A stretch of DNA of 64,000 nt from Octopus vulgaris. Lineage: Eukaryota. Below are positions 436 through 60,259 of the stretch, in pieces. The translations under genes were made by a program, and so were the position numbers. How positions within the stretch are numbered: position 1 is the stretch's first letter; each line of letters opens with the position of its first letter. The DNA lies in contig OX597830.1 of the NCBI GenBank assembly GCA_951406725.2, forward strand, positions 10,540,001 through 10,604,000, written 5' to 3'. Below the pieces are notes generated by a model. The model was not told where the DNA came from. It ran no database searches and saw nothing but the letters and a program-made list of their open reading frames with translations.

Positions 436-1238
436 GAAAGAAGTTAAAAAAAAAAAAGGATGCATCTAATATTTCTTTGCGGAAGTGAATTGAAATGCTC
501 TCCTAAACAGTTTATTTTACCACTCTCATTTAGTAGTTACGTGACCATTCACTTATTCTCATGTGCATGTATATATATACATTTGTTTGTGTTGTTTTGT
601 GTAAACTGACGTAAAGTGTCTTTTGATTTTAATCTCGGTGTTTATATCTACAAATGGAGTTGTATCGGTATTGTTTCGACTGTTGAATCTCTCTACTGCG
701 TTGTTCTCTAGGCCCTACGTTATGTTCACACGTCTTCCATTACAACTACTGTATCCTCGACGTATGTAGTGTGTTTTAAATGTTTGTGTTTAGGCATCAC
801 TTTTTCTATTGTAGCTACGCAGAATATGGCAAACGTAGGTCGTAAGGGAGCACCCATAGTTATTCCATCTTTTTTATTTATAACAATCAAAATTTTGTAA
901 TTTATGCAAAATCTCCAAAATAAAGCCTTTCAAGAAATCATCAAAATTCTTTTTTAAGAACTGTTAGTAACTTGCACCATGGAAGTGCCGTTTCTGTACG
1001 CACAAGACATTTAAACAATCATGAGCAAGTGCCTTCCACGACAGCCTCAGGTTGTGAGGCTACTATGAAGACTGTGATATCTGCATCTATATATACACAC
1101 ACACACACACGTGTGTGTTCCAGCATGGCTGCAGTCAAATGACTGAAATAAGTAAATTAATAAAAGAATATTGTAAAGATCTTTTGAGCACTATGTGTAT
1201 TCTTGTATTCTATACGAATAGAATGGATCTCGTCTGTG

Positions 1239-1312
<74 letters not shown>

Positions 1313-1313
<1 letters not shown>

Positions 1314-1535
1314 CAGGCGGCGAGCTGGGAGAGTCGTTAGCACCCCGGGGAAAATGCTTAGCGGCATTTCGTTTGTTTTTACGTCCTGAGTTCAATTTCC
1401 GCCGAAGTCGACTTTACTTTTCATCCTTTCGGGGTCGATGAAATAAGTACCATTGGAACACTGGGGTCGATGTAATCGACAAGCCCCATTCTCCCAAAAT
1501 TTCGGGCGTTTTCCCTATAGAAGAAAGGATTATTA
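1313..1535 (+). mobile_element. tRNA-derived Nin/Deu-domain SINE (family B)
   Basis: ggcggcgagctgg...gagttcaa B box, Nin-like gtcgacttt..ctttcatcctttcggggtcgat..aataagtacca, (ATT)n tail. Confidence 0.8.
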
Positions 1536-2025
1536 TATAATTATAACCTCTGTGTGTGTGTGAGAGAGAGAGAGAGCAATTAGAGACAAGCCTTGACACC
1601 ATTACTGATTATGATCCAAAAATAAAACCCAGATGTCTTAAGTGGCCTACCACCGGCAACAGAAATGACACGATCAACAATACTACTACTAATACTATTA
1701 CTGCTGCTGCTGCTACTACTGCTGCTACAATGACTTTCACTAATTCCAACATCGTCATCATTAATAAAAACGCTTCCTTCTGCTAAACCAAGAACTAATA
1801 ATTAAGCACACAGACATGAATTTCTAATGGAAGTCTTTAGTTTCGATCGTATTAAAACGGAGAACCAAGGAATCAAGAATTAATACCGTCGGCTCTACCA
1901 AGACCACTAACCATTCTTTATACCAGTGGCTCTCATCTTTGCGCATATAACCGTCACCTTTCGCCCAATGGCTTTTTGCAAATGGCCCATCCCTATATTT
2001 AGTAACCTACAAAAAATATTTTAAT

Positions 2026-2167
2026 CAAGTAGCTTGCTTATGAACCACACGGTTCCGGGTTCAGTCCCACTGCGTGGCATCTTGGGCAAGTGTCTTCTAC
2101 TATAGCCTCGGGCCGACCAAAGCCTTGTCAGTAGATTTGGTAGACGGAAACTGAAGGAAGCCCGTCT

Positions 2168-2226
<59 letters not shown>

Positions 2227-2440
2227 GTGTGAGTGTATACGTTTGTGTATCTGTGTTTGTCCCCCCAACATCGCTTGACAACCGATGCTGGTGTGTTTAC
2301 GTCCCCGTAACTTAACGGTTCGGAAAAAGAGACCGATAGAATAAGTACTAGGCTTACAAATAAGTCCTGGGGTCGATTTGCTCGTCTAAAGGTGGTGCTC
2401 CTGCATGGCCACAGTCAAATGACTGAAACAAGTAAAAGAT
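2026..2440 (+). mobile_element. SINE family A
   Basis: Matches the family consensus through to gactgaaacaagtaaaaga. Confidence 0.85.
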
Positions 2441-4844
2441 TAAAATAAAAACTAATATCATTTGATTGAAATACCTCTATAATATAATGGTCGATATAAA
2501 TGTTGGCTGGTTTCTCCAGTTATACATCACCAGCTTAAAAGCCGTACTCTTTACGGATTTTGAACTAGCTCCTGTGGAGAGCTGCGGCCCAAAACTAAAG
2601 AAATATCATGACTGTAAAACATCTATAATGACTGTATGCCCCGGTTGTGTTTGATGAGAGGTTAAGGATGGATGAGAATTAATTCTGTAATGCAATCATT
2701 CTATTGTTCCAGTTCCGAATTGAATTCCAACTGTTGAACTATTTGTCCCAAAGTTCTTTCCTCGATATAAAATTAACGAAGCGAATATCATTTATCTCCC
2801 CCCGACATTCCTTGATCTCTGACATCATCTGACAAACGCCAACCAGAATGACGTGAATTAGCCAAGCTTTACCTGCTGGAAATGGCAGCCCAAATGCTTA
2901 TAAATCAGATCCTAACGCTGTATGTTCAAAAACCAAATGAAGGGCAAATTTTTTAAATCCTGGGATCATCCTGATTCCAAAAAGGTATAATATGTCTATG
3001 TAGAGCAAATGTAGACTGAGACACAGGGGTCCCGGACAGACAGAATTTCACTTTTATTATAAAAGATTTAGAAAGAGGTGAGAAGTAAATAAAAGCGATG
3101 CAGTGATATTCAACATGCAAGGCTTGGTGGCAAGCAATGCGTAGACGAACTACACACACACACACACATAGTGACAGAAAAGTCACAGGAGGAGGAGGAG
3201 GAGAGGGAATATGCTATTCGTTTTGACATTGTGTGTTAGTTTAACGCACATAAATGCTACATCAAATGACATTAGGATACTTACGCAGCAGAAACACGTG
3301 TTGGAGTGGAATCTAATGTGAACGTGACCCTCATGTTGATATTGCGCGTTAGATTAATATCTAAATCACCATACCCTAGGTTAATGACCCTATTTTAAAT
3401 AATCAGTTTTAGTTAATTCTTTTACAATACTTGTAGCTATGAAAATTATAATTCCAGTCTTTTAGCTCTGCAGGAATCTTTGAGAAAAGCATGAACATCA
3501 CAACACTTCATTTCTCTTTTCTCTAAATGAAAAGTGGAAATAAACTATATAAAGACTGTATTGTCAGCTGATTAAGATGGTTATTGACACCATGGACCTC
3601 TCGCCCTCTACTCCAAGAATGGCTTAATTACTTTAAAGCACTGTCCCTCATTTTGACATTGGCCATTCCTTAGAAATGAACTCTGTACACTAGGTTAGAG
3701 AAGTATCAGAGATACAACTCCATTTTTAATTATCAGTTGTAGCTAATTCTTTTAAAACGATAATGACCCTTTAGGAAACTATGAAAAATAATAATTCTAT
3801 TTCTTCGCTGTTTTACCAAGAAAATTGAGGAATCTTTGAGAAAAGCCTGAACATCACACAAACTCGCTTCACTTTTTATGAAATGAAACATAGAAATAAA
3901 GTAAATGGCGACGATATTTGAGAAGGTGCTGGATTGGAATCTTCCTCTGGTGTTTCGTTAAACGCTTAATTCTTTATGTCTCAGCTCAGCTGGCTGTTGG
4001 GAATAGATAAGAAAAGATCATCTGGGAATGTTAACTAAGATATAAAGATATCGCAATCAGGAAAGATTTATCTCTCTTCTTCCACTTAACGCCATGAAAT
4101 TGGAACTCAACACAATCATTTAAAACGTTTCAGGGATTTAGAAAATATTTTTTATCTTACTTTATTTCCTAACTCTGCGATGCCGTATCTTTGTTTCAAA
4201 ATCGATTTTCCCAGTTCTTGGCTTCAGCAATTTTTTTTTCCTCATAGCTTAACTTCAGAATTCACGAAACTGAGATTTGTGTAAAACGTTTAAATAATCC
4301 ATCAGAAAACAAAGCTGTTTTATTTAATATCATTATTCCGCAGCTGAAGGGTGGCTGGGTAGCAAAATCGTTTGGCAAAGAAGAATTGCCTTGCAGTATT
4401 TCTTCTGGCTGTTTGTGTTCTGAGTTCAAAATCCGTCAAAATCAACTTTTATTTCATTACTCTCGTTGATAAAGTAAACACCGCGGTCGACTTGCCTTTC
4501 CTCCCTCCAGGGTCGATAATATATAATACCAGTCAAGTAATAGCACTGATGGTAGCCACTAGCCTCTCCCCTTAAAATCGTTGACTTTGTGTCTAAATTA
4601 GAAACCACAATCTCGTTACTGATGGGCGGTGAGTTGGCAAAATCATTAGATCATAGGAAGGAAAAGGTACTTCGTGGTGTTTCTTCCGACTCTTTACGTT
4701 CTGAGTTCAAAATTTGTCGAGGTCAGCTTTTCATTTCATCCTTTTAGGGTCGATAAAATAAAGCACCAGCCAAGTACTAGAGACAATGGTATCGACTTAC
4801 ATCCCACTTCAAAATTACCGATAAACCTCCTCGTTATTATTATC

Positions 4845-5330
4845 ATTGTTTTTTTTTCTTCTTTCTTCAAATTTTCTTCCATATTTCACCGAGTGTTTTC
4901 CGTACACCTAGGGCAGAGAAGCTCATTGTATGCATTCCCAGATTAAACACGCAAATTCACAGGTAAAATATGTATAAAACAAAATTAATAAATTCATGAC
5001 TGGATGTTGTTTCCACAGCGATAATGCTCTTCTCAGTACATGATTTGTTCCAGTTAACACGATTTTTGCACTTCCTGTAGGGATGGTAAGCCTGGTATCA
5101 TTTTAAATAGGTTTCAGTACCTTTTTTTTATCATTCCTAGAGATCCTATAATCACTGGTACTGTAGTCGCCTTGAGATACCACATTTTTTCAATTTCTAT
5201 TAGCAAGTCTTTATATTTACTGATCTTGTCACATTCTTTCGCCGCTATATTGTGATCGCAAGGAATACTCATGTCAATTAATAAATACACCTTTTTTTGT
5301 CTAATCTTTTATAATAATATCTGGTTTATT
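4845..5330 (-). mobile_element. R4/Dong-type LINE 3' fragment
   Basis: Minus strand NKPDIIIKD...IDMSIPCDHNIAAKECDKISKYKDLLIEIEKMWYLKATTVPVIIGSLG...LTGTNHVLRRAL; flanked by TTA-type repeats. Confidence 0.85.
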
Positions 5331-5769
5331 ATTATAATTGTTATTGTTATTGTTACTATTATTATTGCTCTTTATGTCCTCTGTTCAAATGCCGCTAAGA
5401 TCAACTCTATCATTCATCTCTCTGGGGTTGATAATATAAAGTTCTAGTCAAGTCCTGGGGAACTTGCTAACCCTTCTCAAAACTAACCTTGTATCTAAAT
5501 TGGAGACTGGCGAAATCGTTCACAGCTCAGAGAGAAAAGGCCTTGTATGTCTTCTAGTACTATACATTCTGAGTTCAAATACTGCCGAGGTCAACTTTGT
5601 GTAACATATCAACCCCATTATTTGGTTGATGAAATATAAAACTACCATTATTCAAATTTGCTGGGCTTTCTTGTGTCTGAATGAAAAATGCGGGTGGTTT
5701 AGAGGTTGAGGTGTTGGGTTCACGGGTGTAAGGTCGTGAGTAGGATACCTGGAACAACGGTCGCATTGT

Positions 5770-6590
5770 GTCCGTTTCTCCAACCCATTTCTTTTTCTTC
5801 TTTAGATGCCATGCCCAGAATGTGGATCATGGGCGATCATATCCTACCACAATACTCTGTTCTTTGACTTCTCTAACAGTTCCACTTCCTGATGTTTAAT
5901 GCTTCTTTCTTCCAACGAATTCCTCAAGCTTGACATCCATGTCATCCTTCTCTTTTCTCTGTTTCTTTTCTTTTCAATCTTTCAGGTCATCGCTAAATTC
6001 TCCATGTCCTCTTTCCTCACCGCATGACCAAGAAACCTCAGTTGCTTGGCTCTTATCTCACGAAGCAATTTCCTATTTACTGCAGCTCGGGCCATCAATT
6101 CTTCATTCGACACTTGTCTGTCTGTGCTATCCTCAAAATTCTCTTTATGAACATTTCACAACTCTCCAAACACCTCATTTCTGATGTTATGGATCAAGTG
6201 TCACTTCAATACATTGACACAGGGTAGACCGGGTAGCAGTCCAACGGATGGACTTTGGCCTTGATGGTCAGAACACGGTTTCTCAAGATGTTATACAATT
6301 TCGAGAATGCAGACTTTGCCAGTACTGTTCGTCTTTTTGATCTCCTTTATACATCTTGCATCTTCTGTGATCAAAGTTCCAAGGTACCTGCTTAGTAATT
6401 TGATTATTTACCTTCAGTAAGGACCTTCGGGCTTCCCCTCTTTGTCATCATCATACACTGTCATCTTGCAATTTATAAACAGACCATTTCTCTCACTTTC
6501 TCTGATCGCAACATCCTGAATTCTCTGAAATTCCTTTTCCGATTCTGCACGTAAGACTGTGTCATCTGCATATTTTATGTTTGTGGTGTT
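5770..6590 (-). mobile_element. Degenerate RTE-clade LINE reverse-transcriptase fragment
   Basis: Minus strand KYADDTVLRAESEKEFQRIQDVAIRESERNGLFINCK, then degenerate YLGT and thumb/C-terminal motifs; bounded by the hAT MITE. Confidence 0.75.
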
Positions 6591-6599
6591 TATTTAGAA

Positions 6600-6869
6600 C
6601 AGTGGTTCCCAAACTTTTTCAAGCTTTGGTTCTAGGGCCACATTCCTAGTGCTCCTCTCCCACCTCATCATCACAAGCGTCGACCATTTTTTGCAGCAAA
6701 TTCAAAACAACAGTATTTCACAAATAAAACTTAACGTTGTTACCCTCTTATTTTGCTTGTTTTTTTTTTTACATCCATTGCCCCGTTTTGGTCACCCCAT
6801 TATCGTCCCATTTTTATGGATCTTTCCACTGTCCCCAAGGGGCGGTACCACCCACTTTGGGAACGACTG
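6600..6869. mobile_element. hAT (Charlie/Buster-type) MITE, 270 bp
   Basis: TIRs cagtggttcccaaa / tttgggaacgactg; perfect 8-bp TSD atttagaa at 6592-6599 and 6870-6877. Confidence 0.92.
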
Positions 6870-7294
6870 ATTTAGAATATGAAAAAAATGAACCTTGTAC
6901 TTGTGCAGCCCACTCTCCATCTGAATATTCTATGAAGTCAAGGCTTGGAGGGTTAAGAAGTGGGTTGTGTCTGCTTGTAGCTACATAAGGACCAAAAGCA
7001 ATTAAACAAGGCATGGTACATACTGTCAAGTCATAATCACTTACGAGTAATGGATTAAGTTAATTAGGTTAACAGAGTAGATTAGTAGAATTTGTATTAA
7101 AGCATAGCACTAAAAATACTTTGCTATATAAAAACACTTTATGGTTCGAGTTCAAATCACACTAAGGCCAGCTTTGCTTTTGTCCTTTAGGAGTTGATGA
7201 AATAAAATAGACCAGTTTAATAAGAGCGTCAATATAATCAACTAAAGAAACCAGCCAAGCAACATAAATATTGGTTATTATTATAATAAAACGA

Positions 7295-7452
7295 AATGCT
7301 AAGCGGCATTTCGTCTGTCTACGTTCTGAGTTCAAATTCCGCCGTGGTCGACTTTGCCTTTCATCCTTTCGGGGTCGATAAATTAAGTACCAATTGCGTA
7401 CTAATCGACTATCCCCCTACCCCTAAATTTCAGGCCTTGTGCCTATAGAAGG

Positions 7453-7490
<38 letters not shown>

Positions 7491-8045
7491 AGGGGGCCTG
7501 TTGTAAGAAACGCTAGCAGGTCGGGCGAAATGCTAAGCGGTATCTCGTCTGCTGCTACGTTCTGAGTTCGAATTCCGCCGAGGTCGACTTTGCCTTTCGT
7601 CCTTTCGGGGTCGATAAATAAGTACCAGTTACACACTGGGATCGATATAATCGACTTAATCCGTTTGTCTGTCCTTGTTTGTCCTCTCTGCGTTTAGCCC
7701 CTTGTGGGTAGTAAAGAAATAGGTATTTCGTCTGTCTGCATGTTCTGAGTTCAAATTCCGCCGAGGTCGACTTTGCCTTTCATCCTTTCGGGGTCGATAA
7801 ATTAAGTACCAGTTGAGTACTGGGGTCGATCTAATCGACTCATCTCCACATCCCCCAAAATTTCAGGTCTTGTGCCTCGAGTAGAAAGGATTATTATTAT
7901 TATGGTGGTGAGCCGACAGAATAATTAACACGCCGGACAAAATGCTTAGAGGCATTTCGTCTGTCTTCACATTCTGAGTTCAAATTCCACCAAAGTCGAC
8001 TTTGCCTTTCATCCTTTAGGGATCAATAAAATAAGTACCAGTAGA
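7295..8045 (+). mobile_element. Tandem cluster of family B SINEs, including an internally duplicated variant
   Basis: Four repeats of ttctgagttc.aattcc.cc...gtcgactttgcctttc. Confidence 0.8.
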
Positions 8046-8689
8046 GTTTATTGGAAAAGTTTATAGGTTGAGACTAATTTTCAAGTATTATGTATAGATA
8101 TTTCTAAAGCTGAAATAACCCAGATAACTAAGGACCATGGAGACTGTAAGCCTATCAGACAACTTTCTAATAAGTTTGAGTGGTTAATACTGAAAAACCG
8201 ACATCAAAAGAACCTGACATAATCTGGTGGTTTTGAACTTTGACTGATTAATAATTAGTCTTAAATGTCAATGTGAAACGAAATCCGTTTGGATATCATA
8301 CTTCACTAATTAAAACGGTTTATTTTATTTTAAGTATATGAGAGATTATAATTAAAAGAGAAATAATTAAATGATTTGGTTTGCTCTACACACATGCGGG
8401 CTCGCACACATACACACACACTAAAATATATTTATATGTTTGTATGAAAGCTAAAAATTTCATATCAAAGCTAAAAATGTTCGAAGCAAGTGTGGCTGTG
8501 TGAATAAGAAGTTGTCTTCCTAACGTTATGGCTTCCTAACGTCTCAAAGCGACGAAAATATTTTGGCAAATTAAATTTAAATGTTGAAGTGAATCTAACA
8601 GTTTTTTTGTGTTTCTTAAATGGCTTATAAACACCTTCCACGCTGTAATTGTTTTCGTTCCAGCACACGATCTCGGATTAGGTCACTTG

Positions 8690-8736
<47 letters not shown>

Positions 8737-8832
8737 TTCAGCAAAATTTAGATTCAGATGAAAATGGTACTTAAGTTAAAGGCACCAGAATTTTGTATGG
8801 TATTATCCATATAAATCAAATGGTGTGATTAT

Positions 8833-8984
8833 AATCAAAATAATCAACAAGGATATCCAAGGTGGAGTAGTACAATTGTTTCATGCTACTTCATTTTATT
8901 ACGCCGTCTCATGTTTAATAAAATGAAGTAGCATGAAACAATTGTACCACACTACCTTGGATATCCTTGTTGATTATTTTGATT
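8833..8984. repeat. 69-bp inverted repeat, 14-nt spacer
   Basis: Arms 8833-8901 and 8916-8984 with 3 mismatches. Confidence 0.9.
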
Positions 8985-9023
8985 GTGTATGTGTGTATAT
9001 ACATACATATATATATATATATA

Positions 9024-9560
9024 TCAACCTTTTATCGTTCGGTCTTGTTTGGCTTGGTTTCTACAGCTGGATGCCCTTCCTAATGCCAACCACTTTACAG
9101 TGTGCGTAGGGTACTTTTAATATGGCACCAGCACGAGCGCTTTTATGTGGCACCGGCATAGAGTGCTTTAAGTGTGGCACCGACAGTGATCTTGCAGGCC
9201 AATCCGCCTCAGTAGGGAGGGAGTGGCCTTAACACTTCTACTGCTTGAGTACAGCAAAGGGCCAGATATATCAGTCCTTTGGCACCTCCTCCATAAGGTT
9301 AAATGTCCGCAGGTCATCCTACTGTACGCCGTCCCATGTCTTTCTGCGTCTCCCTCTTCCACAAGTTCGAACCATTTTGAGTGATAGACACTTCTTTATG
9401 GTGCTACCAGCAGCCATCCGCATCACATGACCAAACCAGAGCAGTCTCCTTTCTTTCTCACTGTATCTAATTCCTCTTATGCTTAATTTTTCTCTCAGCA
9501 CGATATCACACTGTCACATATATCGACTTACACTGCACACCCAGCAGGTAAACAGTTTCC
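9024..9560 (-). mobile_element. RTE LINE 3' end (ORF C-terminus plus 3' UTR)
   Basis: LREKLSIRGIR...RRLLWFGHVMRM...CGRGRRRKTWD, continuing into the ggaagggcatccagctgtagaaa 3' UTR shared by many short copies in the window. Confidence 0.8.
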
Positions 9561-9726
9561 AAATAAAGTCCCTTGGTATGTTTGTTTTGCACCAAGTCAC
9601 AGACACTTCCTTGTCACTATTCATGGTCAAAAATGTCATGGACCAGTGTTTGGTTCACAGGAAATCTGAAACCAATTATTTTGTTACTCACCAATCGTGA
9701 TGGAGAATAATAATTAAAAAATTATA

Positions 9727-10590
9727 CGAGGGGTACCCAAAAGTAACCGGAAACGCTCTCTATGGGATAAGCCCGTTGTAGTTCAGGCTTCCGCCACTAG
9801 AAGCCACTTGATGCAATCCTCAGGCATCAGTATGCCGACTGGTGTCGTCGAGTACAGTCCTACCGCTATGGCGTGAGTCTTTGCTTAGCAAATCCTTTTT
9901 CGTCGATTTTTGAGATGGTTGAAACGAAGAAAAAGCGTGCTTCTGTGAAATTGTTTTCTGTTTCAAACAGCTTACAAAGACGCTGCCATGAACAAAACAC
10001 AGGTTTACGAGTGGTTTTCCCGCTTTAAGAATGGTCTCTTGTCGCCTGAAGACCAACCTCGATCAGGACGACCGTCGACCTCCCGATCGAATGAAAACAT
10101 CATGGAAATTCATGAACTCATCTTGGGGAGACCATCACCGAACAATTGACGAACGTGTTGATATGACTGGTGTGTCCTGGAACTCCTGCCAACGAATTGT
10201 GAGCGAGGAATTGCGAATGAAAAGAGTTGTGGGGAAATTTGTGCCTCGCTTGCTCACAGAAGATAAGCAGCAGTCACGGCTGAATGCGTGCCGTGAACTG
10301 AAAGAACAGTTGGAAGTTGATCCGGATATTTTATCGAAGGTCATCATTGGTGACGAAAACTATTGCTACGGACTTTGCAGAAGTGAAAGAGGTCAAGAAA
10401 ACCCGACGGAGGCGTTAAAAGGCATCATTTCGCAAGAGTTCCAGCATTGCTTCGAACAGCGGAAAATGCATCTGAACCGATGCATTGCTTCAAATGGAGA
10501 ATACTTCGAAGGCGATAAAAGTGTAAACATGTAAAACTAAGTGAATGAAATAATATTGCGAAATTCCGGTTTCTTTTGAGTACCTCCTCG
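9727..10590 (+). mobile_element. Internally deleted mariner element
   Basis: TIRs cgaggggtacccaaaagtaaccggaa / ttccggtttcttttgagtacctcctcg; TA at 9725-9726, TG on the right. ORF 10031-10534 has KFVPRLLT, IIGDE and RCIASNGEYFEGD but lacks the central catalytic region. Confidence 0.9.
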
Positions 10591-11789
10591 TGTAGTAAGG
10601 CTGAAAACCAAATCACTAATAATAATAACAATAGCATCTAACAATAAGAACAAGAAGACAGAGATATTATGTAAATTATTTTAATGAGACATCATCGTTA
10701 TTAACATCATTAGAAGAATGTTTAGTATTAATGGAGTAGGAATTAATGGAATCAAAAGAAATCCAAATCGATCAGGGAATGCAATGAAGTTTCGACAATC
10801 GTTTGTTTGTTTGTTCGAATAATTTCTGTAAATATTGAGGTTTTAATTATATTCTTTGCTTAGGTTTGCATCTGTGAATAAAAGTAGCAGTAAAGTTGTT
10901 TATGCATTTCCTAACATTTAGAAAGTTCTATATAAAGATAACTGGTACTCGATCATCGATGACGATGACAAGGGTTCCAGTCGACCCGATCAACGGAACA
11001 GCCTGCTGGAGGTGAAATTAACCGTGCAAGTGGCTGAGCACTCCACAGATACGTGTACCCTTAACGTAGCCCTCAGGGTACTCGTTTAGGGCTGAGTGGT
11101 CTGGAGCAATGTATAAAAAAGTGTCTTGCTCAAGGACACGTTCAGGGAACATAGAATTTAAAAACAAGGTGAGGTTAGATTGTGTGGCGTTCATGCCTTT
11201 CTCTAATAGAATGATCAAAACAAAAGAAAATCAGAAAGAACAGTAAGCATGAAGTAAAACTTGGTCCCAGGGTCCAGTTTTCAGGAAGCCTGATTTTTTT
11301 TTTTTTTCTTGCTTATCAAGTTTCTTGGAAAAACCACAAGACATCACATTCAGCCACGAATAAGCTAAAATATATTTTCTAATCTAGGCACAAGGCCCGA
11401 AATTTTGTTGGAGGGAGCCAGTCGATTACATCGACCCCAGTATGTAACTGGTACTTAATTTATCGACCCTGAAAGGCAAAGTCGACCTCGGCGGAATTTG
11501 AACTCGGAACGTAACGACAGACGAAATACCGCTAAGCATTTCGCCCGTCGTGCTAACGTCTCTGCCAGCTCGCCACCTTATAAGCAAAACATATATTAAT
11601 GCAGGCATGGTTAAAATCCAAGCTGTGTCCTCCTTAAGGACATCTGCTTATTCCAGTATTTGTTTTTTGATTTCGTCTGTAGATGTCATATTTATGTGAA
11701 GTATGCACAAGAGTCTGAACATTCAGGAAATATTGTTTGCGAGATAATTATATATCAAAATGTGTCCAATCTCCTGATTTGAGACACTT

Positions 11790-11799
11790 TATATATATG

Positions 11800-11830
<31 letters not shown>

Positions 11831-11918
11831 GTGTGTGTGTGTATGTATATGTATGTATATATATGTGTGTGTGATGTATATGTATGTATATATATGTATG
11901 TGTGTATGTATATGTATG

Positions 11919-11949
<31 letters not shown>

Positions 11950-12020
11950 GTATGTATGTATGTATATATATATGTATGTATGTATATGTATATGTATGTA
12001 TGTATATATATGTATGTATG

Positions 12021-12056
<36 letters not shown>

Positions 12057-12076
12057 TGTATGTATATATATGTATG

Positions 12077-12108
<32 letters not shown>

Positions 12109-12170
12109 TATGTATGTATGTATATATATGTATGTATGTATATATATGTATGTATGTATATATATATATG

Positions 12171-12201
<31 letters not shown>

Positions 12202-12594
12202 GTATGTGTATGTATATATATGTATGTATGTATGTATATGTATGTATGTATATGTATGTATGTATATATATGTATGTATGTATGTATGTATATATGTATG
12301 TATGTATGTATATATGTATGTATATATATGTATGTATGTATGTATGTATATATGTATGTATGTATATATGTATGTATATGTATGTATGTATGTATATATA
12401 TGTATGTATATATGTATGTATGTATATATATGTATGTATGTATATATATGTATGTATGTATATATATGTATGTATGTATATATATGTATGTATGTATATG
12501 TATGTATGTATGTATATGTATGTATGTATATATATATGTATGTATATATATATGTATGTATATATATATATGTATGTATATATATATATGTATG

Positions 12595-12662
<68 letters not shown>

Positions 12663-12878
12663 TATGTGTATATATACATATATGTATATATATATATATG
12701 TGTATATATATATATGTGTATATATATATATGTATGTATATATATATATGTATATATATATGTGTATATATATATGTATGTGTATATATATATATGTGTA
12801 TATATATATGTATGTGTATATATATATGTGTATATATATATGTATGTGTATATATATGTATGTATGTATATATGTATG

Positions 12879-12938
<60 letters not shown>

Positions 12939-12956
12939 TGTATATATGTATGTATC

Positions 12957-12990
<34 letters not shown>

Positions 12991-13024
12991 TATGTATGTA
13001 TGTATATATGTATGTATATATATA
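11790..13024. repeat. 1.2-kb compound (TA)n/(TATG)n microsatellite
   Basis: Directly visible. Confidence 0.98.
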
Positions 13025-13362
13025 TCATCACCATTTAGCGTCCGCTTTCCATGCTAGCATGGGTTATGTATGCATAAATACAATGTTTATGTACCTCAGG
13101 CAATGTAGTTACAGTACAGTAAGATAACAGGATGACACTGTTAGGAGAGGTTAGAAAAAGTAAACGAAGAAAATAAAATAATAAAAAAACATGGTAAAAT
13201 ACAATAAAAGTTATTGGAGCCCAAGGAGGTTTAATTCTCTGTAAGAGGTCTACGAATATAATAGCTTTTTTAAAAAAGTTCATGGACATAAAAGTTTTTA
13301 CCTCCTCAAGTTCTACCACCTGTTATTGTATTATAGCTTGTTTTGTTTCCTTTATTTTCTGT

Positions 13363-17705: not shown

Positions 17706-17888
17706 TTAACAAGTAAACGAGCGGTCATTGAGCATCTTAACACTAATTTCCCACAATTTCTTGATAAGTTTAACATCTCCTGATTTTTCTGAAGGCTGAC
17801 ATCGACAACAATTGTTGAAATACATTCCACCAATTCCTTGTAGTTCTGGCACCGCGGCACAATACAGAGTCGTGGCACATCCTTGTTG
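17706..17888 (-). CDS. WWOX: WWOX last coding exon (183 nt incl. TAA), equivalent to human exon 9
   Basis: [60 protein letters not shown], matching human [30 protein letters not shown]. Polypyrimidine tract and ccAG acceptor at 17889-17890. Confidence 0.97.
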   Translation of the reverse strand, partial: [60 protein letters not shown]

Positions 17889-31025: not shown

Positions 31026-31284
31026 CATGCTTTTTGTAAATGGTCTGACAAAGGTAAAAAGCAATTTATAGAACCACCAATTCCTTGCTAATTGAGAACT
31101 CATCATATTTCCAGGATGTAAGGCATTGGTAGCGACACCTAATGGCAAGAGGCGTCGGTTGAGCTCATTAGAAAAGAGGACGTTACAGAGTTTTGAGTTA
31201 TTGTAGGCCTTCATATGAGAGTAGTGACTCTGTGGTGGAGAGAGTTCGTCTTCGGTCATGTTTTCTGTGGTCAAAGAAGCAAAT
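31026..31284 (-). CDS. WWOX: WWOX internal exon (259 nt) with catalytic YxxxK, equivalent to human exon 8
   Basis: (R)[91 protein letters not shown] at 31191-31205; acceptor tttttAG, donor GTaag, phase 0. Confidence 0.97.
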
Positions 31285-31464
31285 CTAAAAAGAAAGAAAG
31301 GATATCGTAAATATCAAAGATATATAGGCACGGGTGAATGGTGAAGACATCTGCTTCGCAACCACATGGCTCTGGGTCAAATCATACTGTGTGGTATCGT
31401 GGACAAGAATCTTATATTGTAGTTATTGTGTCACATAATGATAATAATAATAATAATAATAATG

Positions 31465-35127: not shown

Positions 35128-35313
35128 CTGTGTGACTCAGAAGACACTACGACAACTCTGGCAGGTTTCGAACTAATCAGAACATCTTTCAACAACATCG
35201 TCAGGTAGAAGTGAGCTAAGTGGTTTACTTGGAACACGGTTTCAATGTTATCTTCGGTAAGAACATGTGGTAGTCCGAACACACCAGCATTGAGGATCAA
35301 AATGTGTAGGGGC
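35128..35313 (-). CDS. WWOX: WWOX internal exon (186 nt), equivalent to human exon 7
   Basis: (W)[61 protein letters not shown](R). Acceptor ttcatAG, donor GTaagt; phase joins TG|G=Trp and AG|A=Arg with the neighbouring exons. Confidence 0.97.
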
Positions 35314-35614: not shown

Positions 35615-36505
35615 TTGTGTGTTTGTGTTTGTCCCCCTCCCCACCAATGTTTGACAACCGATGTTAGTGTGTGCTGGCCACACGTAAAAAGCACTCTGTC
35701 CACTCTGCAAAGTGGTTGGCATTAGGAAGGGCAGCCAACCACAGACACCATACCAAGTCAGTCAATAGAGCTTGGCTTTATTGTCCACCCCAGGCCATCA
35801 TCAAAAACAGATGTGGAATGATGATGCTTAGGTGCAGGTGTGGCTGTGTGCTAAGACGTTTGCTGCCCAACTACATGGTTCCAGGTTCAATCCCACTGCA
35901 TGATCTCTCGGACAGACCAAAGTCTTGTGGGCAGATTTTGGAAGACAGAAACAGAAAGAAGCCCATTATGTGTGTGTGAGTGTGCGTGTGTATTTGTGTG
36001 TTTGTGTTTGTCCCCCCACCGTTGCTTGACAACCGATGTTGGTGTGTTTATGTACCCATAACTGAGCAGTTCAGCAAAGAGATCAATGGAATAAGTACTA
36101 GGCTAACAAAGAATAAGTCCTGGGGTCGATTTGTTCGACTAAAGGTGGTGCTCCAGCATGGTCGCAGTCCAATGAGTGAAACATGTAAAAGAATAAAACA
36201 ATATATCTTTTATCTTTTACTTGTTCAGTGGCCATGCTGGAGCACCACCTTGAAGGGTTTTAATAGAACAAATTGATCCAAGGACTTAATTTTCTTTAAA
36301 ACCTAGTACTTATTTTATTGGTCTCTTTGGCAAGCCACTAAGTTACAGGGACATAAACACACCAACACCGGTTGTTGATTGATGGCAGTAGTGAAGGACA
36401 AACACAAACTCAAAGACACACACACACACACACACACACATACATACATATAATGGGCTTCTTTCAGTTTCTGTCTACCAAGATCTGCACACAAGACTTT
36501 GGTCT
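35413..36505. mobile_element. SINE family A cluster (+35413-35670, +35830-36198, -36207-36505)
   Basis: Consensus matches; the last two lie tail-to-tail about 10 bp apart. Confidence 0.75.
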
Positions 36506-37056
36506 GTCTGAGATATCATGCAGTGTTCGCTTCTTGGGCATATTTTTATTAATTTTTTTTGGTGAGGAATATTTCCCAAAGAAATATTCCAGCATCAGGT
36601 GGTCACAAATGCTTCAAACCATTTAGGACCTGCCTCCTTCGACTTCTTTCCATTGGTGCTACAGCAAATTCAACCAATTAAAGCTGGTTGCAGATTAATG
36701 CAAACAGCAGCTTCAGCCCAGCAGGGTTGCATACCATTTGCAATTCAGTCAGTGGAAGGACATGGGGTGACCAACACAGAATTTTCTTCACTGTGAACGG
36801 CTCCTAGTTTCTCACTTCAACTTAGCATCACGGACACATTTCACAGTCCAGTTCCCTCAACGCAATTGATACCATGAATAATTCTTTCTCGTCCCAGCTA
36901 GCACAGACCAACTAACCATTGCTAGCTTATCACGGCTTACAACTTCTCATTCATGTCTACATAGGTTACTTCAGCTTCCCTGATCACATACATTCACATA
37001 CATACATACCCTACATACACATACAAGCCTCAACTCTCACTACATCTCTGCAATTG

Positions 37057-37489
37057 TGGAGGCATTTGGCCTAATGTGTGTGTTTGATTGTGTATTGTTG
37101 TTTTGACAATCTGTCATTGTTATGAATATTATTCTCAATATTCTGTGAAAACTTGTCTGGTCATGGAAGAAAGATTATGTTATTGTGTGCACGTGCATGT
37201 ACATGTCATCATCATCGTGAGCAGTGGACTCACGGTCGAGGGATCACAGGTTTGAATCACAAACCAGGCAATGAGTGTGTTTATGAGCAAAACACCTAAG
37301 CTCCACACGGCTCCGGCAGAAGGTAATGGCGAACTTCTTTTGCCACAACTTTCTCTCACTCTTTCCTCCTGCATCTTGCAGCTCACCTGCGATGGACCGA
37401 CGTCCTGTCCAGGTGGGGAACCTATATGCCAAGGAAACCGGGAAACCGGTCCTTATGAGCCAGGCATGGCTCGAGAAGGAAAGAAACAG
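37057..37489 (+). mobile_element. Family C-related SINE with 11-bp TSD; head interrupted by a ~140-bp insertion
   Basis: TSD ctctgcaattg at 37046-37056 and 37490-37500; head tggaggcatttggcctaa resumes as gagcagtggactcacggtcgagggatc after 37218. Confidence 0.8.
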
Positions 37490-37851
37490 CTCTGCAATTG
37501 GACACTTATCCTTGTTGCTACTTACTAGCACTTCTTCTTTAACAAATAAATCACAAAGTTATAAATTCTTTTCTATTCTAGACACAAGGCCCGAAATTTT
37601 TGGGGAGGGGGACCAGTCGATTAGATCAACCCCAGTATGCAACTGGTACTTAATTTATCAACTCCGAAAGGATCAAAGGCAAAGTCAACCCCAGTACCTG
37701 TGTGTGTGTTTTTTTTTAAAGTCTGGTACTTATTCTATCAGTCTTATTTTGCCACACCGCTAAGTTACAGGGATATAAGCCTACCAATACAAGCTGTCAA
37801 GCAGTGGTGGGAGACTAACACAAAACACACAAACACACACACATATATATA

Positions 37852-38270
37852 TTCTTTTATTCTTTTACTTGTTTCAGTCATTTGACTGCAGCCATGCTGG
37901 AGCACCAGCTTAAAGAGTTTTAGTCTAAGAAATCAACCTCAGATCTTATTCTTTGTAAACCTGGTACTTATTCTATCAGTCTTATTTGCCAAACTGCTAG
38001 GTTACTGGGATGTAAACCCACCAAAACAAGCTATAAAGCAGTGGTGGAAGACTAACTAAAAAAAAACACACATTCATACGCACACAAACACACACATACA
38101 TACACACATATATACGACGGGCTTCTTTCAGTTTCCATCAACCAAATCCACTCACAAGGCTTTGGTCGGCCCAAGGCTATAGTAGAAGACAGTTGCCGAT
38201 GGTGCCATGCAGTGGGACTGAACCCAGAGCCATGTGGTTTGGAAGTAAGCTTGTTACCACATGGCCACGG
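37852..38270 (-). mobile_element. SINE family A
   Basis: Consensus match. Confidence 0.8.
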
Positions 38271-38470
38271 TGCATGTCAGGCAATAAATGGTTGTAAAAT
38301 CTGCTTGTTAACTGAAACTAGATTAAAGACCAGAGGGGCATGGCTAGAAAGTCTTTGATCATAGGTTAAATGAATCAGAGGTGATCAGAGGTCAAACAAC
38401 AACAAGAACTAAGACAACAACAACAAGCATAACATGACACTGGAAATTGTGTAAAGATGCCAAAATTTAC

Positions 38471-38666
38471 CATTTCCGACATTTGTAGGTTTCAGAAAAA
38501 TATCGAACACTTTTCAAAGATGCCAGGTCTAAAGGCATCACTTCGACTTTGGCTATTGGCCTCTCATCAAGAATCTTCTGACATGCTTCATTAGCAGACT
38601 CCACGTTGCGGCAAGCTAATATTACGAAGGCACCATGTAAAGCCAGAGAACGCGCTGTTTCAAAAC
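38471..38666 (-). CDS. WWOX: WWOX internal exon (196 nt), start of SDR domain; equals human coding exons 5+6 fused
   Basis: Translates (G)[64 protein letters not shown](W), matching human [21 protein letters not shown]...LDLA. Acceptor tttttcAG at 38667-38668, donor GTaaa at 38469-38470, phases 1/2. Confidence 0.96.
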
Positions 38667-38771
38667 CTGAAAAAATATGCAAAAAACAAAACATAAATAT
38701 AGTAATAATAATAATAATAATGATAATAATAATAATAATAATAACAATAATAATAATAATAATAATAATAA

Positions 38772-39330
38772 ATGCCCTGATGCAATACCAGGCAGTGGCT
38801 CTCATGGCTTCTGATCTTAACTGATTGGAAGTGTTATCATGTACATTGTTTTGTCTTTGTATAAAAGATGGGCTACAGCAAATATTCTGCTCAATACCAC
38901 AGATTTGCTTGTCATTCGATTGACCTTAACCAGTTGAGCATACTGTTTGGTGGCTGATGATATGTGCATCTCTGATCACGAGCAGAAGTAGTGGGGGAGC
39001 ATCATAGCCATGTGTTGAGAGGGATTCTTTGGGGTTTAAATAATTCACCTCTGGAAACATGGGTGTTTCATTTAACACCCTTAAACAACCCTTATTCATG
39101 GACCATTTGAGCGGGATGGGCTACTCGACAAGAAGAAAACTCTAACTGGGCCCCACCTGCAAGGTCATGTGCTGTTTATCTTCATTTGATGTCATCATGT
39201 CACGCAAATATAGTTGTGAGGCTTGTGCCTGGTGTACCCTTATCAGACGGGTAGTCATGATGGGTATACTGGGCTTCGTATATTTTACCCCAGTGTCACT
39301 TTGATGGCATGCACTGCTCTCTCACTCAAT
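38772..39330 (+). repeat. Interspersed repeat ending in (AAT)n; partial inverted copy at ~48105-48235
   Basis: 3' end ccccagtgtcactttgatggcatgcactgctctctcactcaataataat is reverse-complemented at 48105-48150; embedded in AAT tracts. Confidence 0.6.
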
Positions 39331-39349
39331 AATAATAATAATAATAAAT

Positions 39350-40100
39350 GCAGGGGCAATTAAAAAAACAAACAGAGAGCCTAATTGTAGCAGCCCAAGA
39401 TCAAGCAATAAAAACAAACAACTTGAGTAAAATATATGTGGATAGAATGTGTCAGAAAAATGTAGAGCCTGTGGAACTTGGGACAAGATAGTGGCACATA
39501 TTGTAGCAGAATGCTCCAAGTTGGCACAGGAAGAATATAAGAAATGGAGGCATGGGGATTTGAAGCTGGAAACACATGGTAGAATCATCGAGTCAAAAAA
39601 GTACTGGAGTCAGAGAAATGTAAGATTTTGTGGGACTTTGCTATTCAAACAGACAAGAAGTTAGAAAACAAGAGACCAGACATAATGATTGTGGATAAGG
39701 TAAAGCAAAGTTGTTTATTTATTGACCCTTCATGCCTGTTTGATTCCAGGATCATAAAGAAAGAGGAAGAAAAACAAAAAAAAAAACACAATCCCTTAAA
39801 ATTTGAAATAGGAAAAATTTGGAACATGCAAACAGTAAAGGTCGTTGCTATAGTAATTGGTTCACTGGGAACAGTAAGCCAAGATATAGACAAATGGCTG
39901 GAAGAGATTGAAACAAGATACCCGGTAGAGCTCCTAGAGAAAGTTTGCCTCTTAGGGACAGCAAGGATTATCAGGAGGATCCTAAGCACTTGAAAGACTG
40001 CTGAAAACTTGTGGATACCCAAGGTTACAGGTAGTACCCCACTACCCACATAAACTCTACCAGGAATAAGACCGAAACTGAGCCAAACCAAAATAAATGC
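39350..40100 (+). mobile_element. R4/Dong-type LINE 3' fragment (CCHC knuckle plus restriction-like endonuclease)
   Basis: CRACGTWDKIVAHIVAEC, then WDFAIQTDKKLENKRPDIMIVDK...IDPSC...AIVIGSLG...LLGTARIIRRIL; sits next to (AAT)n. Confidence 0.85.
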
Positions 40101-40829
40101 AAAAGATTATTTTAACTGGTATGTCACAAGATCAGCCCAAGGCTATAGTAGAAGACACTTTCCCAAGGTGCCACACAGTGGGACTGAACCCAGAACCATG
40201 TGGTTGGTAAGCAAGCTACTTACCACACAGCCACTATATATATATATAATTATCACCATTATAATCATTGAATGTCTGCTTCACGTGCTGGCATGGGTTA
40301 GAAGGTCTGATAGGATCTAAAGAGTGCCAGGACTGCATCAAGCTCCAATGCCTGCTTTGACATGGTTTCTGGGGCCAGATGATCTTCCTAATGCCTAAGA
40401 CTTTACAGAATGTATTGGGTGCTCTTTCATGGTAGCAGAACTACTAAAGTCACCAAGTAATTTGCAAGATAAAGAAATGAAAATAAATGCCCTTGGCAGT
40501 GAATTAATACTTCTGGTTGAACCCCAAAACACTCTGAACCATAAAGCTCTCAATTCGGTACATCGTCACTGATTTGACATTCATTTGCGAAGCTTGCATG
40601 GATCAGAGAAAATGCACTGAGGCAAATTTTCTCAAGCCAGATGCCTTCACTGTTGCCCACCCTTCCATGGCTATAGGGGAACATTTCCCCATAACCAGAC
40701 ATGTTTTACACAAAAGAATTGAAACAAACGACAATGCTTGTATAATAGAGATGCTTTTGCAGTCATCATGTGATGTGAAGATAGAGACACACACACACAC
40801 ACACACTGACAATATACATACGCACAACC

Positions 40830-41225
40830 AGCTTCCATGCCAGTGGCACTTAAAAGGCACCATCTGAGCGTGATCATTGCCGGAGCGGCTACCTGGCCTC
40901 CGTGCCGGTGGCACGCAAAAGACACCATCAGAGCGTGATCGTTACCAGTGTCGCCTTACTGGCACCTGTGCCGGTGGCAAGTGTAAAAGATTCGAGCGAG
41001 GACGTTGCCAGTACCACCTGACTGGCCCCGTGCTGGCAGCACGTAAAAGCACCCACTACACTCTCGGAGTGGTTGGCGTTAGGAAGAGCATCCAGCTGTA
41101 GAAACTCAGCCAGATCAAGATTGAAGCCTGGTGCAGCCATCTGGTTCGCCAGACCTCAGTCATTCGTCCAACCCATGCTAGCATGGAAAGCGGACGTTAA
41201 ACGACGACGATGATGATGATGATGA
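40830..41225 (+). mobile_element. RTE-type LINE 3' UTR copy (further copies ~26118-26330, 28075-28236, 40250-40470, 58440-58590)
   Basis: Same family and (GAT)n tail. Confidence 0.75.
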
Positions 41226-41376
41226 CATGTACATGCACGTGCACACAATAACATAATCTTTCTTCCATGACCAGACAAGTTTTCACAGAATATTGAGAAT
41301 AATATTCATAACAATGACAGATTGTCAAAACAGCAATACACAAACACACACACACACATTACATACATACATATAC

Positions 41377-41609
41377 ACTTTTACTTGTTTCAGTCATTTG
41401 ACTGTGGCCATGCTGGAGCACTGCCTATAGTCGATCGAGCAAATCGATCCCAGGACTTGTTCTTTGTAAGCCTAGTATTTATTCTCTCGGTCTCTTTTGC
41501 CGCACCGCTAAGTTACAGGGACGTAAACACACCAGCATCGGTTGTTGAGCGATGTTGGGGGGACAAACACAGACACACAAACATACACACACACACATAT
41601 ATATATATG

Positions 41610-41646
<37 letters not shown>

Positions 41647-41780
41647 ATATACGACGGGCTTGTTTCAGTTTCCTTCTACCAAATCCACTGACAAGGCTTT
41701 GGTTGGCCCAAGGTGCCACACAGTGGGACTGAACCCAGAACCATGTGGTTTGTAAGCAAGCTACTTACCACACAGCCACT

Positions 41781-41783
<3 letters not shown>
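41377..41783 (-). mobile_element. SINE family A (more partial copies ~15740-16310, 40135-40235, 42817-42970, 43310-43430, 50100-50340, 50861-51362, 58870-59190)
   Basis: Consensus match. Confidence 0.8.
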
Positions 41784-51237: not shown

Positions 51238-52305
51238 GTATGTATATATATGTATATGTTTGTGCATCTGTGTATGTCCCCCACCACCACCACCACCATA
51301 AGTTGACAACCAATGGTGGTGCGTTTACATCCCCGTAACTTAGCAGTTCAGCAAAAGAGATCAATCTTGGATCTCATTGTTCGTTTGCATCTGATGTCCT
51401 GGATACAAAACATCCTAACAAAATCAGTTCTGGCTATAATTTCTATAGTAATTCTGTAGAAACAACCTTAACACGTGATTTAAAAGCACTGCTAACACAG
51501 TAGTACACGGTATTGACTTGTAGAAAACATTTAATATACATCGTTGTATATTATGTTTGCTTAACGAAATACTGTGTCCCTAGAAGTCATTATTCCTTTC
51601 TACTGTAGGCACAAGGCCTGGAATTTTGAGGGGAGGGGATTTCTTGATTAGGTTGACCCTAGTGCATAACTGGTACTTAATTTATCGACCCCAAAAGGTT
51701 GAAAGGCAAAGTCAACCTCGGCAGAATTTGAACTCAGAATGTAGCAACGGGTGAAATACAGCTCAGTAGTTCACCTGGCATGCTAACGATTCCGCCAGCT
51801 CACCGCCTTCTCAATAAGTCGTTAATATTTGCATACCAGCTTCCAGGAATGTGTTTAATATGTAAATTGGTATATCCAATAATGTTACACTGCTGTATTT
51901 AATGGCTATTTAAGCAATGAGCTTTGTGGATGATTAAGGGGTTAGGTGGGTGCTGATGACAGGTCAAAAACTCCCAAAACATGGCATATATGCTCATTAC
52001 CTATTTTGATCTCGTTGTTGTTTGCATTAGGCACACTCAGATATGAAACATCAAACAAAAATCGGTTCTGGCTTTGATTTTTATTGAAAATCCGTAGAGA
52101 TGACCTCAACGTGTGATTTAATAGCACTGCTAACACAGCAGGACACAAAACGTTTAATATAATTTGTGGTGTATTATGGTTACATAACAAAATACCAAGT
52201 GTCTACAGGTCATTAATGCATACATATAATTATTTATAGACACACATACACATGTATACAAATATATATACATACATATGTATATACATGTTCACAAACA
52301 CACAC

Positions 52306-52350
<45 letters not shown>

Positions 52351-52667
52351 TTTATATATACACACACATATATATACACACACATTAATATTTATACACA
52401 TATATATATACACAGCTATGTATATACATATATATAAACACATGTATATACACACATATATATACAGACATAAGCATATATACACACACACATTTATATA
52501 TACACACACACATATATACACACACATTAATATTTATACATATATACATATATACACAGCTATGTATATACATATATACATATAAACACATGTATATACA
52601 CACATATATATACAGACATATGCATATACACATATATATGTATACACACACACATATACATATATAT

Positions 52668-52699
<32 letters not shown>

Positions 52700-53395
52700 C
52701 AAATTTAAATAAAGTACTTTAATTTCTTCACTATATAACCTGATATACATCTCTCATCTATAATTACACCGTTGCACTCACCACACCAAACAAAAAGGAA
52801 GAAAATAATAAATTAACCTACAGCAGAATAATTAACGTAAAAAAATATTTAAAATATAAATACATACAAAAAGAACAAAAAAATAATCAAAAAGTAATCA
52901 AAATACAGAGGATTAAAAAATGATTAAAATTTCTAAAATATTTTGTTATTTCTAAAGTTAACGAAATCTAACTGTAAAAGAACTTTAAGACTTTCGAAAT
53001 GCAAGTTATGAATTTACTGCGATTTATTGCAGTTTATTGCAGATGGCCAATAAATCCATTTAGAATCGGGTATTCTCTTACAGAATCGGGTACACTTTTA
53101 TATGGATTATAAAGAACTGAGCTGTTCCATTTTCATATTTCTAACACCGAGATGACAGCAGCTTACTGCCATGCCTACAGAAATAAATAAATAAAGATGA
53201 AAATATGATTTCCATCAACATTAATCATTTATATCTGGGTATTATGAGGTGTTTAATTGATATTTGCAAGACTGCTGGTAATGCTTGTTTTCGCAGACCT
53301 ACCGTATTTTATTTTCATTATTATAACCACTACCACTACTACTACTACTACTAATGTAGTAATCTAGCAGAATCGTTAGCCTGATGGCAACATTA

Positions 53396-59010: not shown

Positions 59011-59269
59011 TAAAAATATACATACATTCACTCACACACAACATCACAGGCTTATTTGGGTTCGATCAGATCCACTCACACAGCTTTGAGGCTGCAGTAG
59101 CAGACACTTGCCTAAGATGTCATACAGTGAGACTGAACCCAAAACCACATGGTTTGGCATCAAATTTCTCAACCACACGGCCACACCTAAGATATTGGAT
59201 GTTTTACAATGTTCTTGGTATTCGTGATATGACACAATACAGAATCTATTAACTTTTCTTACAGGCCTA

Positions 59270-59294
59270 AATACACACACATACATACATACAA

Positions 59295-59328
<34 letters not shown>

Positions 59329-59508
59329 CTACACACATATACACATATATATATATATATATATATACATACATATATACCTAAACACATATACACACAT
59401 ATATATATATACATACATATATACATACATACACATATATATATACATACATATATACACATATAAATATACATACATATATATACATATATACATACAT
59501 ATACACAC

Positions 59509-59557
<49 letters not shown>

Positions 59558-59679
59558 CATATATATACACATATATATACATATATATATACACACATAT
59601 ACATATATATACACATACATAAATACACACACATATATATATATACATATGTATATATATATATACACACATATATATC

Positions 59680-59717
<38 letters not shown>

Positions 59718-59795
59718 CATATATATATATATATACATATATATATACACATATATATGCATATATATATATATATACATTTACATATATACACA

Positions 59796-59833
<38 letters not shown>

Positions 59834-59885
59834 CACATATATATATACAAAAATGCATATATATATACATACATACATACATTCA
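59270..59885. repeat. Compound (TA)n/(CA)n microsatellite
   Basis: Directly visible; similar tracts at 44060-44300, 52235-52700 and 60255-60550. Confidence 0.95.
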
Positions 59886-60259
59886 TACGGTACCTCTCCC
59901 GTGTCTGTATGCAATGACAACAGGAGCACCACTGTACATGAAATGTCATCAAATGTGCAACTAGGGAGAAACATGAGTACAAAATGTTTGGGGAATTTCT
60001 ATAAGCTGTGTGTATATGTAGGTGCGGTGTGCGCTGTGTATATATATGTAGGTAGATAGATTTTTTTAACATGTTAATTTGTTCTCTTACACCAATGGCA
60101 CCACCACCACCACCACCAGCTTTGCCGCTTCTCCTGCTGCTGCTGCTGCTGCTGATGATGATGACGACGATGATGATGATGATGACGATGCTTCTCCAGC
60201 TGCTATTGCTATTACCACGGTTACTAACCCAAAACAACCATGGACCATGCCTTGATATG

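What the first reader, a model, noticed from the sequence alone, without database searches (positions are those of the whole stretch)
37075..41350. 129-bp near-perfect inverted copies bracket one WWOX exon: templated insertion and possible circRNA, skipping or editing switch
Seen: 37088-37216 is the reverse complement of 41215-41343 with one mismatch. The 41.2-kb copy spans an RTE tail, flanking sequence and a CA tract, so it is a chimeric local segment rather than one element. The 37.1-kb copy interrupts the A-box region of a TSD-flanked SINE. Inference: a recent templated insertion copied from 4 kb away during break repair. The copies lie in the two introns flanking the 196-nt exon 38471-38666. 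Known: flanking reverse-complementary intronic matches promote back-splicing, exon skipping and ADAR editing, and coleoids edit heavily. Skipping 196 nt would frameshift WWOX.
Basis: partly seen in the sequence, partly recalled or inferred. Interest (0 to 1): 0.75.

Follow-up and report, generated by a model that had tools for sequence, protein, structure and literature searches.

The report
Inverted DNA patch flanking WWOX exon
A 142-base piece from one intron of an octopus WWOX gene sits copied backwards in the next intron and is shared with a related species; it is likely an ordinary DNA-repair scar that would let the transcript fold into a hairpin around one exon, with no effect on splicing shown.

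Summary
The inverted pair is real: 128 of 129 bases match, with only two full copies among 36 genome matches. The insert is 142 nt (37077-37218). It replaces 4 nt of a SINE A-box, with up to 5 nt of microhomology at one end, none at the other, and no target duplication. The arms flank the 196-nt WWOX exon. It is not an assembly artefact and not very recent: contigs of a same-species run and of a second organism, about 4% diverged, both span the left junction, and the second has two substitutions inside the insert. Such pairs are ordinary here: 15 other inverted near-identical pairs within 10 kb in 1.66 Mb, 2 of them with 1-10 kb loops. Best reading: a local templated insertion from repair or template switching. 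A hairpin is predicted, but no circle, skipping or editing was shown; RNA data were too thin. Both arms lie over 1.2 kb from splice sites, and octopus circRNAs are reported scarce (PMC9699675). The scan noted the same anatomy in another genome (e1-9930471).

The parts
37077..37218 (+). Inserted arm, 142 nt; inverted copy of 41207-41356 with three fewer TG units, four extra bases and two fewer CAT units; replaces 4 nt of the SINE A-box
   Evidence: left junction spanned by contigs of X1 and X4
37072..37076 (+). Microhomology TAATG shared by SINE head and donor 41357-41361 (2 nt if the SINE had the commoner TAGTG)
   Evidence: TAATG in 2 of 29 and TAGTG in 23 of 29 family copies
37056..37489 (+). 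Host SINE with tRNA-like A/B-box head; high-copy family (4883 candidates, best others 88-91% identical)
37046..37055 (+). 5' target-site duplication of the SINE
37490..37499 (+). 3' target-site duplication of the SINE
38471..38666 (-). WWOX coding exon, 196 nt, start of the dehydrogenase domain; upstream intron about 286 kb, downstream intron 3157 nt
   Evidence: partly covered by an RNA-type contig
41207..41361 (-). Donor arm: end of a (GAT)n tail, 118 nt low-copy core, CA tract
40838..41225 (+). Interspersed repeat with (GAT)n tail and variable 5' ends; 3' part 96-98% identical to its best relatives; RTE link not verified
41370..41783 (+). Very common interspersed repeat right of the donor (about 200 hits in 1.66 Mb); not part of the copied tract
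35128..35313 (-). Next WWOX exon, 186 nt, same strand as the bracketed exon

Best explanation
A 142-nt inverted copy of nearby intron DNA interrupts a SINE 4 kb from its donor; it likely arose by microhomology-primed template switching during germline repair, and is likely neutral, with the pre-mRNA predicted to form an editable hairpin that would change WWOX splicing little. Steps: (1) shown: the SINE lost 4 nt and gained the tract with no target duplication or poly(A); (2) inferred: a broken end ending in TAATG paired with the same motif in the donor's CA/TG tract, was extended about 140 nt through the core into the CAT tract, slipped in both microsatellites, and rejoined bluntly; (3) shown: organism B carries the left junction, so the event is inferred to predate the split of the two lineages and to postdate the young (GAT)n-tailed element whose tail it copied; (4) predicted: the arms pair across a 3988-nt loop and attract ADAR as any intronic duplex would; (5) inferred: the exon is still mostly included, and any skipped product would be frameshifted.
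For: Junction anatomy fits the published signature of an insertion close to and inverted against its template with junction microhomology (PMC8421209, passages). Two full copies only. Background: 47 clustered within-block two-copy events in 1,664,000 bases, 16 inverted with gap up to 10 kb including this one; 5 others with gap 200 nt-10 kb, 2 others with gap 1-10 kb, about 3,400 genome-wide (95% range 400-12,000) for the last class. The insert drifts: X4's contig has 2 listed substitutions in its 124 nt of insert; one X4 contig shows 2 extra bases and one X1 contig a 6-nt loss within the tract (arm not assignable). Arms are 1252 and 2540 nt from the splice sites, outside the 500-nt zone where such matches are enriched around regulated circles (PMC8938519, passages). 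A 196-nt exon is below the 353 nt cited for single-exon circles (PMC8698871, passage). Octopus circRNAs were low, 296 in all (PMC9699675, passages and supplement PDF).
Against: The arms differ at only 1 of 121-129 non-repeat positions where 3-5 are expected if both drifted since before the A/B split (P = 0.035-0.19; the pair was chosen for being near-perfect). It is the only match of at least 95% over 80 nt among 231 inverted matches across this exon, has no competing partner, and is predicted at -239 kcal/mol. A 286-kb upstream and a short downstream intron could favour back-splicing or loop-out; inverted Alu pairs within 5 kb are enriched around skippable exons (PMC13019027, passages). The right junction has no microhomology, and 4 kb is far beyond the 100 nt used in PMC8421209. 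Neutrality was not tested on RNA.
Confidence: 0.7

Rival explanations
1. The hairpin is a working switch: pairing loops out or circularises the 196-nt exon, ADAR editing tunes it, and skipped transcripts would be degraded, lowering WWOX.
For: Best and only near-perfect cross-exon match; kept in two lineages; slight excess of arm identity; mechanism known in mammals (PMC8938519, PMC13019027).
Against: Arms far from splice sites; short exon; the inserted arm has substitutions in organism B; such pairs are common; circRNAs scarce in octopus; the circle has 12 stops over three turns.
Confidence: 0.08
2. The patch was copied from RNA: WWOX pre-mRNA was reverse-transcribed at the break, starting at the blunt CAT end and ending by annealing at TAATG (class 2 TSIP or endonuclease-independent retrotransposition).
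For: Donor lies in a transcribed intron; no target duplication, a microdeletion and microhomology are the class 2 TSIP features (PMC5110952, passages).
Against: Donor is 4 kb away on the same molecule, whereas TSIP donors are described as distant; two-copy events cluster at short range in the sampled blocks, 37 of 47 within 10 kb.
Confidence: 0.13
3. An older insertion whose arms are kept alike by occasional gene conversion between the inverted copies, without function.
For: 1 difference against 3-5 expected.
Against: Not significant after ascertainment; the microsatellite ends differ; which arm the variant contigs belong to is unknown.
Confidence: 0.07
4. Assembly artefact, or the duplicated ends of a staggered-break inversion.
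For: Near-identity of the arms.
Against: Contigs of X1 (36859-37165) and X4 (36863-37200) cross the left junction; all four WWOX exons in the window and the upstream exon lie on the minus strand in order.
Confidence: 0.02

Closest known systems
Microhomology-mediated templated insertions (MMB-TI / MMBIR-type template switching; PMC8421209)
   Same: Insertion near and inverted to its template, microhomology at a junction, small replacement of host sequence, germline variant.
   Different: Template 4 kb away rather than within 100 nt; microhomology at one junction only; both ends in microsatellites.
Class 2 templated sequence insertion polymorphisms (PMC5110952)
   Same: No target duplication or poly(A); microdeletion and microhomology; intact donor.
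   Different: Local donor; shared between two organisms rather than shown polymorphic; RNA intermediate untested.
Reverse-complementary matches flanking circRNA exons and inverted-Alu loop-out skipping (PMC8938519, PMC13019027)
   Same: Complementary arms in the two flanking introns within 5 kb of one exon; editable duplex predicted.
   Different: Arms come from a one-off local copy, not two mobile elements; 1.3 and 2.5 kb from splice sites; no circle or skipped isoform shown.

Membership tests
Local templated insertion (MMB-TI type) | Insert copies an intact nearby template in inverted orientation | tested here: met
Local templated insertion (MMB-TI type) | Microhomology at the junctions | tested here: inconclusive
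   2-5 nt on the left, none on the right
Local templated insertion (MMB-TI type) | No target duplication or poly(A); host sequence replaced or trimmed | tested here: met
   4 nt lost, GTTA in 25 of 29 family copies; flanks not duplicated
Local templated insertion (MMB-TI type) | Template within about 100 nt (operational limit of PMC8421209) | tested here: not met
   3988-nt loop; works like the class but outside that paper's search range
Class 2 TSIP | Presence/absence polymorphism within the species | tested here: inconclusive
   X1 has the junction but may not be independent of the assembly; X2's listed contigs stop at 37075; no empty-site joint among those shown
Class 2 TSIP | RNA intermediate | not testable with these tools
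   sequence alone cannot separate RNA from DNA template
circRNA-promoting RCM / loop-out pair | Complementary arms in both flanking introns | tested here: met
circRNA-promoting RCM / loop-out pair | Back-splice or skip junction in RNA | tested here: inconclusive
   one RNA-type contig run; 15 joints shown, 4636 not shown
circRNA-promoting RCM / loop-out pair | A-to-I editing in the arms | not testable with these tools
   no matched DNA and raw RNA reads; the unique intron bin 36752-36970 had depth 0 in X15
   (GAT)n tails and variable 5' ends seen; shared upstream homology ends within about 400 nt in 29 copies with 1.5-kb flanks; the 2 loci whose long ORFs were read held simple-repeat frames; no Pfam scan run

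The most novel reading that the evidence does not exclude
A one-off repair patch created a unique, competitor-free hairpin around an essential, frame-shifting WWOX exon, has been kept near-perfect across an octopus species split, and now acts as an ADAR-tuned circRNA or skipping switch; local inverted patches would then be a transposon-independent source of splicing regulators in coleoids.
Probability: 0.08. Interest if true: 0.65.

Novelty: new member of a known kind. Interest (0 to 1): 0.22.

Why it matters
As it stands it is a clean, datable example of a templated insertion in a mollusc and a lineage marker shared by two octopus lineages. It is also a convenient natural test site for long-range intronic duplex editing in a heavily editing animal, because the arms map uniquely apart from each other. 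It would matter more if RNA showed a circle or skipping, since that would tie repair scars to new splicing control.

Tried and rejected
High-copy repeat: rejected for the core (2 full copies of 36 matches; the search skips very common words). Assembly artefact and inversion ends: rejected. 'Recent': rejected. RNA: no RNA holder on record was listed; X15 is RNA only by guess, covers 38477-38636 with no differences, and gave no listed back-splice joint, but most joints were not shown, so this is no evidence either way. The right junction and the donor arm were not among the 32 contig pieces shown for any run. ARAGORN found no tRNA in an intact SINE copy, so 'tRNA-derived' rests on the A/B-box look, which is recalled. 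RTE link not found. Literature: 10 searches; none listed a paper on this locus; 'Octopus vulgaris + SINE + RTE + tRNA-derived' gave 0 papers. WWOX was absent from the supplement text searched for PMC9699675, but its data files S1-S4 were held cut to 100 characters, so any circRNA list there was not seen. Earlier-findings look-up for this genome was empty.

Full report
Observation. 37088-37216 matches the reverse complement of 41215-41343 at 128 of 129 bases, with a 118-nt exact run. Searching the own genome with the 101-nt core gave 36 matches: the two arms at 100% and 34 partial matches of 77-95%. One of these and window 40690-40760 resemble the core, so it is a decayed piece of an old repeat, but only the two arms are near-identical.

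Gene context. The 196-nt segment 38471-38666 has AG/GT ends on the minus strand and is 100% identical to P0001, named WWOX-like from Octopus vulgaris; P0001 is 59% identical to a bird WWOX. Further exons lie at 35128-35313, about 31027-31291 and 17709-17888, all on the minus strand, and the upstream exon is at C17:10864677 and above, giving an upstream intron of about 286 kb and a downstream intron of 3157 nt. The bracketed exon is therefore not inverted.

Anatomy. The left arm sits in a SINE (37056-37489) with a 10-nt target duplication. Of 29 other family copies fetched (of 40 scored, 4883 candidates), 25 have GTTA where this copy has the insert. The insert is 37077-37218, 142 nt; the donor is 41207-41356 plus a shared TAATG at 41357-41361. 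TAATG is the SINE variant in 2 of 29 copies and TAGTG in 23 of 29, so the true microhomology is 2-5 nt. The right junction has none. Relative to the donor the insert has three fewer TG units, four extra bases, one substitution and two fewer CAT units. There is no target duplication or poly(A) around the insert. The donor runs on into its neighbours at both ends while the other arm breaks a SINE, which fixes the direction of copying. The donor's left neighbour is a (GAT)n-tailed repeat whose 3' part is 96-98% identical to its 39 best relatives; no link to a reverse-transcriptase frame was found, so 'RTE' stays unverified.

Reality and age. Four of 24 listed runs were laid, all contigs. X1 (organism A; may be the assembly's own source, so not counted as independent) has a contig over 36859-37165. 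X4 (organism B) has a contig over 36863-37200 with substitutions at 37119 and 37124. Both cross the left junction. X2's two listed contigs end at 37075, which is inconclusive, though X2 covers 37119 and 37124 with the assembly's letters. From six of X4's eight listed contigs (two repeat-derived ones and exon parts left out) intron divergence is 52 of 1316 = 4.0%. The insertion thus likely predates the split of A and B (shared polymorphism or introgression not excluded) and postdates the tailed element. One difference between the arms where 3-5 are expected gives P = 0.035-0.19; given that the pair was picked for near-identity I do not read this as selection, but conversion is possible. Contig assembly can merge near-identical copies, so which arm carries each variant is uncertain; the right junction and the donor were not among the pieces shown.

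Background. In 1,664,000 bases (the 464-kb WWOX region plus six 200-kb blocks; five chosen arbitrarily, one near dehydrogenase-gene hits) I chained 25-mers that occur exactly twice. The 64 within-block segments cluster into 47 events: 21 inverted and 26 direct; 16 inverted ones have a gap up to 10 kb (10 under 200 nt, 3 at 200-999 nt, 3 at 1-10 kb including this one). Leaving this one out, 2 events scale to about 3,400 genome-wide (95% range 400-12,000). Young low-copy elements were not fully excluded, and one of the two may be such. Some of these pairs must bracket an exon by chance (inference).

RNA consequences. Among 231 inverted matches between the downstream intron and the whole upstream intron, this is the only one of at least 95% over 80 nt; within 10 kb it has the top score of 9. 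Predicted duplex energy is -239 kcal/mol, similar to or weaker than longer SINE duplexes (-232, -433) that are at most 77% identical and have partners inside their own intron. So a hairpin, and ADAR editing of it, is plausible: most octopus editing is in introns and 3' UTRs (PMC9699675, passages; PMC9068888, passages on squid). Against a splicing effect: arms 1252 and 2540 nt from the splice sites against enrichment within 500 nt (PMC8938519, passages); exon shorter than the 353 nt cited for single-exon circles (PMC8698871, passage); only 296 circRNAs in octopus, expressed at low levels. For it: inverted Alu pairs within 5 kb are enriched around skippable exons, especially with short downstream introns, though that paper found little energy difference between skippable and constitutive exons (PMC13019027, passages). 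The circle would carry 12 stops over three turns. The one RNA-type run covers 38477-38636 and cannot test circles, skipping or editing.

Comparison. It works like a microhomology-mediated templated insertion (PMC8421209, passages) and shares the junction features of class 2 TSIPs (PMC5110952, passages). It exceeds the former's 100-nt search range, and neither polymorphism nor an RNA template was shown for the latter. It has the geometry of an RCM pair but lacks the defining RNA evidence. An earlier scan note on another genome describes the same anatomy around a JAKMIP2 exon (unchecked).

Verdict. Real, shared by two lineages, of a known kind and common in this genome; most likely a neutral scar (0.7), with about 0.08 for a working switch. 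Interest 0.22.

Noticed in passing
G000 blocks L051-L210 and window: Near-identical local inverted duplications are dense in this genome: 16 within 10 kb in 1.66 Mb, 10 of them near-palindromes with gaps under 200 nt; two start at a TA microsatellite (C1:100129908, C5:60076361). A genome-wide study of this class may be worth more than this locus.
   Followed up: partly
G000:C17:10578667-10864676: WWOX has a 286-kb intron just upstream of the dehydrogenase exons, echoing the giant introns of vertebrate WWOX at a fragile site (recalled); it holds several local duplications (events 28, 30-33).
   Followed up: partly
window 38471-38666: The 196-nt exon appears to equal human WWOX exons 5 and 6 (107 + 89 nt, recalled) without the intron between them.
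   Followed up: no
window 35894-36525: Two repeat copies head to head form a 630-nt, 74% palindrome in the downstream intron, predicted the most stable local duplex; a likely editing substrate.
   Followed up: no
G000:C17:10883383-10883457: The first 25 residues of P0001 map here and lack the first WW domain seen in squid and bird WWOX; the gene model may be missing its true 5' exons.
   Followed up: no
window 11790-13025, 52204-52703, 59260-59888: Long simple-repeat arrays produce thousands of inverted matches of 75-83% identity.
   Followed up: no
G000:C4:12655145-12704263, C11:86751794-87894226, C14:19376898-19377731: Six intronless short-chain dehydrogenase frames 37-40% identical to WWOX.
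   Followed up: no
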